From the NCBI GenBank assembly GCA_951406725.2, contig OX597814.1:108190001-108254000 (forward strand): a stretch of 64,000 nucleotides of DNA. Direction: 5' to 3'. A model generated the notes under the pieces. That model saw only the letters and a program-made list of their open reading frames with translations. It did not search any database and had not been told where the DNA came from. Below, one piece after another: positions 1,419-59,996 of the stretch. Position 1 is the stretch's first letter; each line of letters opens with the position of its first letter. This DNA comes from Octopus vulgaris (lineage: Eukaryota). The position numbers were made by a program, and so were the translations under genes.

Positions 1419-1625
1419 AAGAATATTATTGGCAGTGACTTTGACAATGGCTTACCTGGCCAAAACTTTAGACTGTGATGCATTGAAGTTAATCTTGGCT
1501 TTATATAGTCTCTGTTGGGTTATTATGAGGAGGTGTTTTGGAGAAATTTTTATTAACCTCATGACATCACAGTCTGAGGGTGAACTACTGGCCAAAACTT
1601 CGAAGTCACTGTCAATAATATTCTT
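1419..1625. mobile_element. Degenerate fold-back element with a hammerhead-like motif (Penelope-like)
   Basis: aagaatattattggcagtgactttga (1419) pairs with tcgaagtcactgtcaataatattctt (ends 1625). An inner pair is tagactgtgatg..gaagttaat / attaacctc..catcacagtct. Confidence 0.65.
1569..1612 (+). ncRNA. Degenerate minimal type I hammerhead motif
   Basis: Stem I acagt/actgt; core CTGAGGG (vs CUGANGA); aaaa in place of GAAA; palindromic stem III ACTTCGAAGT; cleavage triplet GUC. Confidence 0.45.
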
Positions 1626-2729
1626 GTTTAAGAATTATATATATATATAAATGGCGGTGCCCCAGCATGGCCGCAGCTCATGAGCTGAAACTAAATAAAA
1701 TAAAATAAAAAATATCATCATCATCATCGTTTAACGTCCACTTTCCATGCTAGCATGGGTTGGACGATTTGACTGAGTGCTGGCGAACCAGATGGCTGCA
1801 CCAGCCATGTGTGTGTGTGTGTGTATGTATGTATATACCCTTGTCCTGACATCATATGATAGCTGTAAACAAGTATCATCATTATATAAGCAACATAGCA
1901 TGTTTCCTGTAAACAGGTGAAGGTCAGCAACAAGAAGGGCATTCTGCCATAGGAAATCTGCCTCAACAAATCCAGTCTGAGCCATGTAGGCATGGGGGAA
2001 AAATGGACACTCAACTGATGATGATAAACAATCCAAAAGCATCTCAAGAATACTCAGAGAGAACCAGGACTGAAAAATCATTCGGAAGGTGTTAAGAATG
2101 GTTAAGATGAGGGCCAACGAAGCTCATTAGTTAATCAGAAGATTCATTAAATATAGCAAGTTATTTATTATTTAGGTGATTGGTCAGTACTGGAGATTGG
2201 TGTAGAAGCATGGTTCTGTGGTTAAGTTTGTTTATCAATCACAGTTTGGTGTCCAGTTCCAGAGACTCAGAACCTCAAGTACACACACACACACGGTTCT
2301 GGATTCAGTCCTACTGCATGGCATGGATCACACAAAGCGTTGCACATAGATTTGGTAGAGGGAAACTGAAAGAAGCCTACTGTGTACACACACAAACACA
2401 CATGCGTGTGGGTGTTTGTGTGTCTTTGTCTTGACATATCATCATCATCATTATTTAATGCCCGTCTTCCATGCTGGCATGGGCTGGACAGTTTGACCAG
2501 AGCTGGCAAGGTCAGAGGCCACACCAGGTTCTCATAGTTGTAACATGAGCATCACTATTATGCATGAGATGTAATATTCTGTGAGAACATGTCTGGCTAT
2601 GAAGGGAGATAACTTTGCTTGGAAACAGGTGAGGGTTGGTGACAGGAAAAGCATCCAGCTATGGAAAATCTGCCTCAACCGCATCCAACTTATGCTTACA
2701 TGGAAAAGTAGATGTTAAAATGGTGATCA

Positions 2730-2996
2730 TACATACACACCACACATATGTACATACATGTACACACATATATATATATATATATACATATATATACACA
2801 CATATATACATGCATACACACACACATATATACATGCATACACACACACATATACATGCACACACAAATTTATATACATACATGCAAACATATATAGATA
2901 CATACATATGCACACACACACACACACACACACATATATATATACACACACACATATACATATACACACACATATACATACACACACACACACACA
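2730..2996. repeat. Compound (CA/TA)n microsatellite
   Basis: Direct inspection; explains the HT/VC/YI-rich ORFs at 2636-3184. Confidence 0.95.
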
Positions 2997-3975
2997 TCAT
3001 TTTAACCTCCATTTTCCCATGCAAGCATGGGTCAGGCAGAATTTGTGGAGGTGAATCTTCCACAGCCAGACACCTTTCCAGTCACCAACCCTCACTCGTT
3101 TTCAAGCAAGGTTGTATTTCCTCATGGCCAGACACGTCTTCTCAGAATATCGGCAATGAACGACACTGCTTTCCATTACAGTGATACACACTGCCAAGAA
3201 CCATGATCATGCAATGTTACGACACGAAGAAACACACGCAATGATATTTATTCTGTTGGACTGAAACAATAACAGAGATTCTTACGTAATCCTTGCAAAA
3301 ACGAAAATATCGATAACATTGATGATAACGATCATCATCATCATACTGTTGGTGATGACAATCATGGTGATGATGGATGTAATGATGATGATGAGCCCCG
3401 ACAATGGATTCAAAACAAACTTTGTTAATCATTGTGAATAGGAAAGAGAAATATTGGTCGAGAAAGACATTTGTCTACAACAGTCATGAAAATAGGTGGA
3501 AAAACAGGAAATCTTGGCAATTAAAAGAGCAGTAAGATTACTGTTATTTTTATTATTAATTTTTCTATTATTTTTTTTATCATTGTTCTTGTTTTTATCG
3601 AGTTATTTTTGCTATTATTATTATCATTGTTGTTGTTGCATTGAGCAAGAGAAACAAGTTGTTTGTGATAACCGTGCAGCAAACTAATGCACTCAGGCGT
3701 TCTCTCCAACACGAAAATATAGATAAGAAAACACCAACAATGGATTTATCTAGAAAACAAAAACAAACAAACAAAAATACAACATAATAAATGGAATAAA
3801 GTTTAGTTTTTTAAAAAAATAAATAAATGGAGATTGTATGAGTTCATTAAAAAAAAAACAAATTGCAAGTTTGGATTGAAATAAAATAAAATGACAAACT
3901 ATACATAACTGTATGCATGCACATATGCTCAGGTATTGTGTATGCATTTATGTGTGTGTACATATATACACACAC

Positions 3976-56704: not shown

Positions 56705-57216
56705 TTTATATTCCATTTTAACCCTTTTGTTACCATATTTCTGTTATGATACCTTGCTTTTGTTTCAATTGATTTGGTGTCGGGTTCATAAATGAATATG
56801 AAATTATGAGGAAGGTTTTAAGTTAGATTACTTTAATCTCTTTGAAACCATATCTCTGTTGTATCAATTTGCTTGATTTTGATCTCATGATCAACCAGTC
56901 TATCAGATGTTATACATCATTGGTCACAATGCACTTTGCATCGTTTTAGCTTTTGAATCGTGCCACCCCACAGGCTGGGCAAGCAAGCCAACATTTTTCC
57001 CTGATCGGAAGGTTAGTCCGTTGCAGGGAACCCCTTTACAGCTGAATGGACTGAAGCAAAATGAAATGAAGCGTTTTGCTCAAGAACACAAAATGCAACT
57101 CGTCTAGAAATCAAAACGCAATCTCACAATCATTAGTGTAACACATCTAAAACCACTAAGCTATGCACCTACCCCTGTTTCAATTAATTTTGAAAATAAT
57201 GAAGAATTTAGTAAAA

Positions 57217-57900
57217 TCATCATCATCACTGTTTAACGTCCACTTTCCATGCTAGCATGGATTGGACGATTTTGACTGAGGGCTGGCGAACCAGATGGCT
57301 GCACCAAGCTCCAATCTTGATCTGGCAGAGTTTCTACAGCTGGATGCCCTTCCTAACGCCAACCACTCCGAGAGTGTAGTGGGTGCTTTTTACGTGCCAC
57401 CGGCATGGGGGCCAGTCAGGCGGTACTGGCAAAGACCATGCTCGAATCTTTTTACACATGCCACCAGCACAGGTGCCAGTAAGGCGACGTTGGTAATGAT
57501 CGCACTCAAATGGTGCCCTTTTACGTGCCATGGGACGGAGGCCAGTCAGGCAGTACTGGCAAAGACCTTGCTCGAATCTTGTTACACATGCCACCATCAC
57601 AGGTGCCAATAAGGGGACGTTGGTAACGATCACACTCGAATGGTGCCCTTTTACATGCCACAACACGGGGGCCAGTCAGGTAGTGCTGGCAACGACCTCG
57701 CTCAAATCTTTTTACACATGCCACCGGTACAGGTGCCAGTAAGTTGACATTGATAACAATCACGCTTGAATGGTGCCCTTTTACGTGCCACCAGCACGGA
57801 AGCCAGTTGGCTGCTCTGGCAATGATCACACTTGGATGGTGCTCTTGGCACCCAACTAACATGGGCACAAGTGCCAGTAAGGCGACATTGGTAGCTGTCA
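57217..57900 (-). mobile_element. RTE-tail repeat with an expanded array of about 59-bp subrepeats
   Basis: Alternating ...gccagtcagg..gtactggcaa and ...gccagtaagg..cgttggtaa units. Confidence 0.85.
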
Positions 57901-59386
57901 TTAATAAGATGGTGTTTGAAATAAATTACCACGATGCTTTGATGGACAGCATTAGTTTAAATCACCAAGACAGAACCAGGGACATTCTTAGATGGGTTGG
58001 CATCAAAAGAATTAAGACTTATCAGGTTATTAACATTATGGAGACAATATGGTCTCACACAGAAATATTTCTAATGAGAGGGATGGACAGTCACAAGAGG
58101 GTGGGGTACAAAACTTGGTATTTACTTTTAAGTGGGGGTACGAAAAGGGACTACAAAACAGTGGTTCTAAAGGTAGTGTTTAACCCCAGTCTATTTCCGA
58201 CTGAATAGACTAGAAACATTTAACCATGATCAGATTGAGTGTCAAGGAATTTATAAGGCCTCTGTCAGTCAAAGTCAATCATGTCTCTGCACTTGTCTGT
58301 GTAACCTGGGCAAGGGTTTTTTTGGTGAGGAGAGGACTAGCAGTTAAGCATGGATGTAAATCTGCCCTTTCATGCTATTGATATTTATCCAAGGCTTCCA
58401 ACTTGGACCAATACACCTTGGCACCAGTGTTATCAAGACCATTACTGTCGGGACAAAAAACCTGGAATACATACCACGAGACAACTTGTGCCAATCCTCA
58501 ATTCCACCAAATCACTAATTTGTGCTTGTTTTTATTGACACCTCACAAACGGTAAAGTTGACCTTGGTGAAAAAAAAACAAGATGATTGGTGATTTGCTG
58601 TGCTGACCCGTCCATCAAAGTCTAATGGAGGCCATAAAAGCATGTTGTTTATGTCTATATTCCACCACCACCCCAGACACACAATCTGTCTTACAAATCT
58701 CTACTCCAACCTCCCCCTCCCAGCTTCCTAGCACCTCCTCCCACCTCTACCAGCAATCATTGCTTGCTGTATCCCACAACCCTCCATCACTGACTTTCCC
58801 TTCTTGAACCTACCTGCAACAGGCAACACAATCGGTCCCCTGATGAATACCCCCCCCCCCCGTGCATGTTCACTGCATTCCCCTCCCAACCATCTCCCAC
58901 TCACTCACCCCATCCAATCTTTTTCATTTGATTTATATGCACTTCACTGTAACTTGTCACATTTTCTTCTCTCTCTTTCCAACTGGCACAGCCACGTGTC
59001 CCCCTTTACTGCAAGATATCTATTTCTGTTCCACTATTAATACTCTCACTTCTCCTCACCTGGCACCAAGCTACCGCCTCCCTCAATACTGCTACACACC
59101 TCACCTGAGGAGCTTTGTCTTATGTGTTACTCTGTGACCGCACTGCTGCTGGCACCATGTGAAAATCACTCAGCCCACACAGTTCAGTGGTTGACATTTT
59201 GGAGGAGCTCTCCAGCTTACTAGTCTTCAGGCAAACCGTCCAAACCATGCCAGCATAGAAAGTGGATGTTAAATGATGACGACGAGGTGGATTCAGGTAT
59301 GGAAACCATGCCAAAGCAGACAATAGAACTTGGTACAGTCTTCTGACATACCAACTCATATTAAAGTGTCGAACCCATAGGAGGAG

Positions 59387-59996
59387 TTCTATATTTAAGA
59401 GATGAGGAATTATGTACATTATTTACATTTGACGGATATTTGTCCTCATCTTGTTTGTTGCCCATGGGCATAAGGCATAGTGGTTAAGAGTGCAGGCTAC
59501 TAACTCCAAGATTCTGAGTTCAATTCCAGGCAGAGACATGAATAATAATGAGCCCTGTGCTAGTAGGGTATTAAGAGCACCATCCGAGCGTGATCATTGC
59601 CGGAGTGGCTATCTGGCCTCAGTGCTGGTGACGCGTAAAAGACACCATTCGAGTGTGATCGTTACCAGCATCGCCTTACTGGCATGTGCTGGTGGCATAT
59701 GTAAAGGATTCAGGCGAGGTCGTTGCCAGTACCGCCTGACTGGCCCTGTGCCGGTAGCACGTAAAAGCACCCACTACACTTTCGGAGTGGTTGGCGTTAG
59801 GAAGGGCATCCAGCTGTAGAAACACTGCGAGATCAAGATTGAGGCCTGGTGCAGCCATCTGGTTTGCCAGCCCTCAGTCAAAATTGGAAAGCGGACGTTA
59901 AACGATGATATAATATATAATAATAACAACAACATCGAAAAATACCTTACGAATGAGAACCCAGGCTCGAAACTTCCCCAAGACACCTGATGAAGG
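59387..59996 (+). mobile_element. Second copy of the tRNA-headed hammerhead-tail SINE, interrupted by an RTE-tail repeat (59550-59909)
   Basis: Inverted tail 59387-59460; head from 59466 (ggcatagtggttaag..gagttcaattcc); body resumes atcgaaaaatacctta...gacacCTGATGAagg and is then truncated. Confidence 0.8.

What the first reader, a model, noticed from the sequence alone, without database searches (positions are those of the whole stretch)
1419..59996. A shared system: unrelated fold-back elements, each with outward-facing minimal hammerhead ribozymes
Seen: four inverted-repeat elements with no obvious mutual sequence similarity (1419-1625, 7126-7655, 16203-16543/59387-59996, 55671-56031) and a fifth single-arm family (4160-4320, 39855-40005). 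All show the order stem I - core - stem II - GAAA - stem III - UH - stem I'. Stem III is a different palindrome each time (ACTTCGAAGT, ACAGCTGT, AATATT, ACGT) and is missing in the 16-kb copy. In every pair the motif-bearing strands point away from the centre. Established: Penelope-like elements carry minimal type I hammerheads with palindromic stem III, thought to act as dimers, and often have inverted pseudo-LTRs. Inference: a radiation of non-coding Penelope parasites that would be mis-annotated as MITEs. They would also supply long dsRNA in a lineage with heavy A-to-I editing.
Basis: partly seen in the sequence, partly recalled or inferred. Interest (0 to 1): 0.85.

Follow-up and report, generated by a model that had tools for sequence, protein, structure and literature searches.

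The report
Back-to-back Penelope retroelement ends with hammerheads
These fold-back repeats are the broken-off ends of five protein-coding jumping genes of a known animal class (Penelope-like elements), each carrying a predicted self-cutting RNA motif and landing back to back; the less ordinary parts are a tRNA-like start that likely turns one family into thousands of SINE-like copies and an insertion footprint that suggests copying from both cut DNA strands.

Summary
The repeats are real. Each family carries a minimal type I hammerhead at family level, but only 2 of the window's motifs (both family D arms) are intact. The 'non-coding parasite' reading mostly fails. In all five families, longer genomic copies run upstream into a Penelope-like coding region (RT plus GIY-YIG for C, D, E; Hydra-type endonuclease for A, B). 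All 104 paired loci among 230 examined face outward, and 94 carry the Penelope 'tail' on one arm only. Family D has 11-15 bp target duplications, unlike MITEs. Opposite-strand hammerhead pairs and inverted, one-tailed Penelope insertions are already in print (Cervera 2014; Craig 2021). Less ordinary points: (1) family C has a tRNA-like A/B-box head 35 nt after its ORF, and 25 of 30 sampled copies start there (7,320 head matches); (2) family D has a natural G3:C8 core swap and a sharp 5' end often preceded by an extra G; (3) the footprint fits two cDNAs primed from both target strands. Cleavage, Pol III transcription and editing are untested. This scan reported the tRNA head, the core swap and twin priming before, on other DNA of this genome.

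The parts
1351..1550 (-). Family A left arm with tail (about 1351-1418); decayed hammerhead 1432-1476 with a locally flipped core
1552..1647 (+). Family A right arm, tail-less; decayed hammerhead 1569-1612, stem III ACTTCGAAGT. Family links upstream to a Hydra-type endonuclease remnant
   Evidence: L204, iE 7e-9
4142..4318 (+). Family E single arm with tail, ending in (TA)n; hammerhead 4191-4226 (family core CTGTAGA, A6U; this copy has lost G12). 3' end of a Neptune-like RT+GIY-YIG element
6995..7427 (-). Family B left arm with tail (about 6995-7125); hammerhead 7219-7274
7430..7662 (+). Family B right arm, tail-less; hammerhead 7519-7574, stem III ACAGCTGT. Family links upstream to a Hydra-type endonuclease (CxCX5C linker)
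   Evidence: L222, iE 1e-36
16199..16210 (.). Family C left target-site duplication (11 of 12 bases match 16547-16558)
16211..16434 (-). Family C left arm, tail-less, full short unit: tRNA-like head (about 16362-16434), (AAT)n, hammerhead 16255-16301 lacking stem III
16432..16546 (+). Family C right arm, 5'-truncated, with tail; hammerhead 16436-16479 lacking stem III. Family links upstream to a Penelope/Poseidon-type RT+GIY-YIG ORF
16547..16558 (.). Family C right target-site duplication
39845..39990 (+). Family F single arm (older sister of E); decayed hammerhead 39861-39893
55671..55682 (.). Family D left 12-bp target-site duplication (identical to 56020-56031)
55680..55822 (-). Family D left arm, tail-less; intact hammerhead 55765-55813 with G3:C8 core
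55824..56019 (+). Family D right arm plus 56-nt tail (55964-56019); intact hammerhead 55833-55881 (7-bp stem I, 5-bp stem II, stem III AATATT). 3' end of an RT+GIY-YIG element
56020..56031 (.). Family D right target-site duplication
59385..59460 (-). Second family C insertion: tail-bearing stub without ribozyme
59462..59996 (+). Second family C insertion, opposite arm: tRNA-like head 59462-59551, nested unrelated SINE about 59552-59910, rest 59922-59996 ending in the first half of the hammerhead

Best explanation
Each fold-back is a single insertion of the short 3' end (pseudo-LTR, with its predicted hammerhead) of a protein-coding Penelope-like element, likely made when both nicked target strands prime reverse transcription at two fixed start points and the two cDNAs join by microhomology at their far ends. 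Shown: link to coding PLEs, outward orientation, one-sided tail, two fixed 3' ends, 11-15 bp duplications in D, variable or microhomologous junctions. Inferred: twin priming by a dimeric enzyme; short fixed-length classes arise when the enzyme runs off the 5' end of the RNA, which is a capped Pol II start about 18 nt before stem I in D and a Pol III start at the tRNA-like head in C. The ribozyme would act, if at all, on the template RNA as a dimer through the palindromic stem III, and not in the inserted fold-back.
For: ORFs upstream in register. D: GIY-YIG and RT+EN inside long inverted insertions L182/L184, with relatives of 511-890 aa. C: DKG/YVDD RT, Pfam RVT_1 E 3.9e-6, plus EN, with an inverted arm at its 5' side in L331. 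E: RT+EN in L333 with the E arm downstream. B: Hydra-profile iE 1e-36 in L222, which carries the B arm. A: iE 7e-9 in L204, which carries the A arm. Architecture: 104 paired loci of 230 examined, 104 outward, 0 inward, 94 with exactly one tail; pattern-sampled D 12 of 26 paired, all with one tail; bimodal 3' ends; all 8 chosen long D pairs one-tailed. Ten D loci outside (TA)n show 11-15 bp duplications. D: 2,927 ribozyme matches against 865 for a stretch 46 nt upstream. Of 9 D arms that stop at that start, 7 are preceded by G where the element has C (p 0.0013 at 25%). The D centre reads A in 8 and T in 9 of 17 copies, in both subfamilies (Fisher p 0.31 without L003). In vitro, a Poseidon protein cuts and extends both strands, starts at two sites that define the tail, is predicted to be a dimer and does not need ribozyme cleavage (PMC11167929).
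Against: No intact full-length ORF was recovered for any family; A and B rest on endonuclease remnants only, and Pfam scores for the D, E and C endonuclease pieces are below cut-off or absent. The A/T centre split and the sharing of a subfamily base by both arms could come from assembly polishing of palindromes or from later arm recombination. Five of the 7 extra G's lie at arm-arm junctions. Ten of 104 pairs had zero or two tails, and family E is mostly single-armed (27 of 29). The first BLAST samples are biased to the query. There is no RNA evidence for start sites.
Confidence: 0.8

Rival explanations
1. Independent non-coding PLE parasites: each short family is its own replicating unit that borrows PLE enzymes. 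Most plausible for C, whose short copies keep an internal Pol III-type promoter and could be re-transcribed like a SINE.
For: C: 7,320 head matches; only 5 of 30 continue into ORF-side sequence and 21 of 30 have the ribozyme downstream. ARAGORN at relaxed threshold of 30 heads against 4 of 600 shuffles (p 1e-6). No T4 run in 5 of 6 scorable units. Non-autonomous PLEs are known (MRC1, PMC8557442; retrozymes, 10.64898/2026.07.22.740005).
Against: All five families are contiguous with coding PLEs; the C head lies inside the ORF-linked element, 35 nt after the stop. A, B and E show graded upstream lengths. A D sequence variant occurs in both long and short copies. Rfam and default ARAGORN do not call the head a tRNA.
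Confidence: 0.3
2. Single-cDNA fold-back: one tail-bearing cDNA hairpins on its own 3' end and copies itself to make the second arm.
For: Both arms share a subfamily base in 11 of 12 scorable D copies; the exception, L003, has a truncated arm. Short palindromes sit at the common centres of D and C.
Against: It predicts one centre base relative to the tail, but both occur (8:9). It does not explain why the second arm ends at a fixed internal site, or junctions where both arms are independently truncated.
Confidence: 0.2
3. MITEs (cut-and-paste DNA elements) with chance ribozyme-like motifs.
For: Short, high-copy inverted repeats, often inside (TA)n.
Against: Asymmetric tails, variable centres and arm lengths, 11-15 bp duplications, many single arms, RT/GIY-YIG upstream, descriptor hits in 0-1 of 1000 shuffles.
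Confidence: 0.02

Closest known systems
Minimal type I hammerheads of metazoan PLEs (Cervera & De la Pena 2014, PMC4209133; parts 1-2 of 4 read)
   Same: Short stem I, unpaired base between positions 9 and 10.1, palindromic stem III, many unrelated families per genome. The paper already notes dual motifs 100-700 bp apart on opposite strands, probably truncated PLEs.
   Different: It reports a U3-A8 covariant; here the cores are G3:C8 (D), U4C (B, inferred A) and A6U (E). It describes no tRNA-like head in the parts read.
EN+ PLE insertion architecture; Penelope/Poseidon, Neptune, Hydra clades (Craig et al. 2021, PMC8557442; passages and section 11 read)
   Same: 5' truncation, an inverted copy adjacent at the 5' end, a tail at one end only, (TA)n bias. 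B and A match the Hydra features tested (CxCX5C linker seen in B; CxxC before the conserved E in both).
   Different: Tails here are 33 nt in C but 56-94+ nt in D, E, B and A, against 30-40 bp in print. Clade calls are by motif only; no tree was built, and D is not assigned.
Poseidon_Ac in vitro (Frangieh et al. 2024, PMC11167929; parts 1-2 of 4 read)
   Same: Two internal RT start sites that define the tail, both strands cut and extended, ribozyme near the ORF start, AT-rich targets.
   Different: The parts read do not model the inverted pair. C3G/G8C is a laboratory double mutant there (partial rescue) and the natural family consensus here.
Schistosoma Sm-alpha/Sj-alpha SINE-like repeats with hammerheads (seen only through review PMC6765202, passages)
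   Same: Pol III-type promoter followed by a hammerhead, as in family C.
   Different: Those are described as often tandem SINE-like repeats with no PLE ORF link in the passages read. C is contiguous with a Poseidon-type ORF and inserts as one-tailed inverted pairs.
Metazoan non-LTR retrozymes (PMC7229834 passages; 10.64898/2026.07.22.740005 part 1 of 5 and passages)
   Same: Type I hammerheads, PLE-related.
   Different: Retrozymes are head-to-tail tandem and non-coding. These are head-to-head pairs or singles cut from coding elements.

Membership tests
EN+ Penelope-like elements | RT plus GIY-YIG endonuclease ORF upstream of the pLTR | tested here: met
   C, D, E: RT and EN pieces in one locus with the arm. 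A, B: endonuclease only. No intact ORF recovered.
EN+ Penelope-like elements | Inverted 5'-truncated copy at the 5' end, tail on one end only | tested here: met
   104 of 104 pairs outward, 94 one-tailed, of 230 loci
EN+ Penelope-like elements | Variable-length target duplication, AT-rich or (TA)n targets | tested here: met
   D 11-15 bp in 10 of 29 loci, the rest in (TA)n or unscorable; window C 11/12. Not resolved for A, B, E.
EN+ Penelope-like elements | RT phylogeny within PLEs | not tested
   No reference PLE set on hand; motifs only
EN+ Penelope-like elements | Tandem pLTR-ORF-pLTR master copy | tested here: inconclusive
   Not seen in the 16 wider regions fetched; not searched for specifically
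Minimal type I hammerhead | Core, stems I/II, extra base at 9/10.1, palindromic stem III, H17 | tested here: met
   C, D, E met; B only with an extra base allowed at 11.1; A only after CpG inference. Intact arms: D 32/44, E 18/60, C 6/41, B 1/51, A 0/45
Minimal type I hammerhead | Self-cleavage (dimer or protein-assisted) | not testable with these tools
   Needs an assay
Minimal type I hammerhead | Covariation within families | not tested
   No covariance model or pair count was run; stems differ in sequence between families while pairing is kept
tRNA-derived SINE (family C short class) | A/B-box tRNA-like head at the 5' end | tested here: met
   A/B-box-like motifs read from sequence (consensus recalled); relaxed ARAGORN 6/30 against 4/600; 25/30 lack ORF-side sequence upstream. 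Rfam negative.
tRNA-derived SINE (family C short class) | Pol III transcription and amplification from non-coding masters | not testable with these tools
   Only indirect: no T4 run in 5 of 6 units
MITE | Fixed symmetric termini with short fixed duplication | tested here: not met
Non-LTR retrozyme | Head-to-tail tandem units, no ORF link | tested here: not met

The most novel reading that the evidence does not exclude
A Poseidon-type PLE has captured a tRNA-derived Pol III promoter in its terminal repeat, so its short copies are self-transcribing SINEs moved by Penelope enzymes rather than LINE enzymes; and PLEs in general insert by twin priming, with the hammerhead's palindromic stem III serving to pair two template RNAs for a dimeric enzyme, which would explain the conserved palindrome, the back-to-back pairs and the one-sided tail together.
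Probability: 0.3. Interest if true: 0.75.

Novelty: new variant of a known kind. Interest (0 to 1): 0.45.

Why it matters
How PLEs make inverted pairs and one-sided tails is named as an open task in Craig 2021. A young family with about 2,900 ribozyme-bearing arms gives a large natural data set for testing twin priming. A natural G3:C8 consensus suggests selection on the catalytic core and would be missed by standard descriptors. A Penelope-moved, tRNA-headed short class would add a partner class for SINEs. For annotation, these repeats should be filed as PLE ends, not MITEs or unclassified SINEs.

Tried and rejected
A strict descriptor without the extra base at 9/10.1 found nothing in the window. 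Rfam gave no hammerhead or tRNA hit at these motifs. Default ARAGORN found 0 of 8. Pfam gave no useful hit for D pieces and weak GIY-YIG/RVT_1 hits otherwise; PDB sequence search gave nothing. The word-indexed protein search with the B piece found nothing; the HMMER search did. Direct B-versus-A protein comparison was not significant; only the profile linked A. I first read D's sharp 5' boundary as a splice acceptor (branch-point-like and pyrimidine-rich sequence upstream). I dropped it because the stopping arms share no exon-1 sequence beyond one G; it is not excluded. My automated 5'-end scoring misread a subfamily variant, so those offsets were read by eye. Divergence values include misaligned tail columns and were not used. 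Sequencing runs: no RNA holder listed on record. In one search (contigs; RNA status guessed; multi-copy family; other individuals) three positions showed A>G or T>C at 0.4-37% in three RNA-guess runs against 0.3% or less in the comparison run, but some non-editing changes were also enriched, so this is a hint only. Lunse et al. 2017 is not held. Ten literature searches listed no paper on octopus PLE hammerheads, a tRNA-headed pLTR, PLE twin priming or a natural eukaryotic G3:C8 core, judged from listings and the passages read. Subscription papers, Repbase/Dfam and all supplements (including the octopus repeat library of PMC13282606 and Craig's files) were not seen and may already hold these families.
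Full report
Setting. The window lies in G000, a 2.8-Gb genome in 227 contigs. A relative of the family D protein is named from Octopus vulgaris at 53% identity, so I take the host to be an octopus; I did not pursue this. 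I label the families A (1.4 kb), B (7 kb), C (16 and 59 kb), D (55.7 kb), E (4.2 kb) and F (39.9 kb).

Observation. The four fold-backs exist, with arm identities of 70, 83, 86 and 97%, and the families are not significantly alike. All are multi-copy: first-look candidates D 843, C 1681, A 713, B 2098, E 3407, F 150. From 30 copies each I derived majority sequences and applied a descriptor modelled on PMC4209133. It hits B, D, E and an intact C copy on the sense strand only, with 0-1 hits per 1000 shuffles; A fails because G12 has decayed, which I infer from CpG-type variants. Cores are C CTGATGA, D GTGAACA (G3:C8 swap), E CTGTAGA (A6U), B CCGATGA (U4C, with a C.A closure of stem II) and A probably CCGACGA. 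All have an extra base before stem II, as described for PLE hammerheads. In the window only D's two arms pass. The isolated D motif folds into stems I and II as its minimum-energy structure. Intact motifs among sampled arms: D 32 of 44, E 18 of 60, C 6 of 41, B 1 of 51, A 0 of 45. The 39.9-kb copy is a separate, older family. The 59-kb locus is a second C insertion split by another SINE, with half a ribozyme.

They are ends of coding elements. One D copy ran past the fold-back centre; that stretch occurs 865 times and leads about 1 kb upstream to a Cys-rich linker and GIY-YIG domain. Eight long head-to-head pairs, chosen from the hit list, all had one tailed and one tail-less arm, and L182 and L184 hold RT and endonuclease. 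For C, a Penelope/Poseidon-type ORF ends about 35 nt before the short unit; L331 holds RT (RVT_1 E 3.9e-6), endonuclease, the tailed arm and an inverted arm. For E, L333 holds RT, a CxxxxCxxC linker, GIY-YIG and the E arm. For B, the upstream piece found 524 relatives, some with RT; a profile of 149 of the 150 listed scored L222 at iE 1e-36 and A's L204 at 7e-9, and both loci carry their arm downstream. B's CxCX5C linker is the Hydra-clade mark. No intact ORF was recovered, A and B rest on endonuclease remnants, and clade labels are by motif only.

Architecture. Of 230 loci of about 3 kb (204, 26; a few are one insertion seen from both arms), 104 had an opposite-strand arm. All 104 faced outward; 94 had exactly one tail, 7 none and 3 two. 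The 3' ends fall in two peaks per family for A-D. E is mostly single (27 of 29), though my query included its tail. Ten of 29 D loci show 11-15 bp duplications, and the rest lie in (TA)n or could not be scored. The window's D and C copies have 12-bp duplications. This is the known PLE footprint, and opposite-strand hammerhead pairs 100-700 bp apart were noted in 2014. It is not a MITE footprint.

Mechanism (inferred). A Poseidon protein in vitro nicks and extends both target strands, starts at two RNA sites that bracket the tail, and works without ribozyme cleavage. If both strands prime, one at each site, and the cDNAs join at their 3' ends, the product is an outward pair with one tail inside one duplication. 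D's common centre is a 7-base near-palindrome whose middle base is A in 8 and T in 9 of 17 copies relative to the tail, in both subfamilies, as expected if a mismatch between two annealed cDNAs is resolved either way. Polishing artefacts or later arm recombination could give the same split. C shows a similar mixed centre (6, 2, 2 and 1 of 11, not oriented to the tail). Both D arms share a subfamily base in 11 of 12 copies, which fits one RNA, paired sister RNAs, or fold-back.

Why short classes exist. D has 2,927 ribozyme matches but 865 for a stretch 46 nt upstream. Arms that stop at that boundary are preceded by G in 7 of 9 cases where the element has C, which suggests a copied cap and so a Pol II start; 9 further arms ran on upstream, and five of the G's lie at arm junctions. 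C has a tRNA-like head with 7,320 matches. Of 30 copies taken in genome order (exact matches on one chromosome), 5 continue into ORF-side sequence, 25 do not, and 21 have the ribozyme downstream. Relaxed ARAGORN of 30 heads against 4 of 600 shuffles, while Rfam and default ARAGORN do not. Five of 6 scorable units lack a T4 run. I read this as a Pol III promoter inside the pLTR that yields a SINE-like RNA. Whether short copies seed further copies is untested.

dsRNA. A read-through D transcript is predicted to form a roughly 143-bp hairpin, which would block the ribozyme and offer an editing substrate. The read evidence is a hint only (see Tried and rejected).

Verdict. The tRNA-headed pLTR, the non-canonical cores and the twin-priming footprint make it a variant worth bench tests. 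Ten searches listed no paper on these points, but Repbase/Dfam, subscription papers and supplements were not seen. Earlier notes of this scan reached similar readings on other DNA of this genome. I consulted them after my own tests of C and D and do not count them as support. Papers: PMC4209133 and PMC11167929 parts 1-2 of 4; PMC13282606 parts 1-2 of 3; PMC8557442 passages and section 11; PMC2377424 abstract and section 16; PMC6765202, PMC7229834 and PMC6962438 passages; 10.64898/2026.07.22.740005 part 1 of 5 and passages. Hammerhead numbering, A/B-box consensus and cap-G reasoning are from my own knowledge.

Noticed in passing
window 48052-52950: Six near-identical 843/844-nt head-to-tail units starting in (TA)n. 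No canonical type I hammerhead; could be another PLE-type or retrozyme-like array.
   Followed up: partly
window 61878-62790: 220-nt, 95% inverted arms around a (CA/TACA)n core; no hit with my hammerhead descriptor; MITE-like or another fold-back family.
   Followed up: no
window 1443-1469: Micro-inversion of about 26 nt that flips the ribozyme core within family A's left arm.
   Followed up: partly
L205 about 1900-1990 (query-oriented): A relative of family A shares the endonuclease end and 3' UTR but carries a different hammerhead-like end, which suggests pLTR swapping between PLE families.
   Followed up: no
L092 1985-2059 (-): Rfam Hammerhead_HH9 hit below gathering score (29.9 bits, E 0.00094) in the flank, a further ribozyme-bearing repeat.
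   Followed up: no
family D, L026/L028 and run contigs at window 55786-55860: A subfamily variant changes loop II while keeping stem II.
   Followed up: partly
family E, L129/L130/L134/L135/L140: 5' ends appear to cluster about 40-55 nt upstream of the query start, near a possible initiator; not quantified.
   Followed up: partly
L312, L333 (- strand), L201: Further Hydra-type endonuclease remnants in flanks, showing many PLE families in this genome.
   Followed up: no
window 6645-6910, 3990-4140, 4610-4700: Other tRNA-like-headed repeats seen by eye.
   Followed up: no
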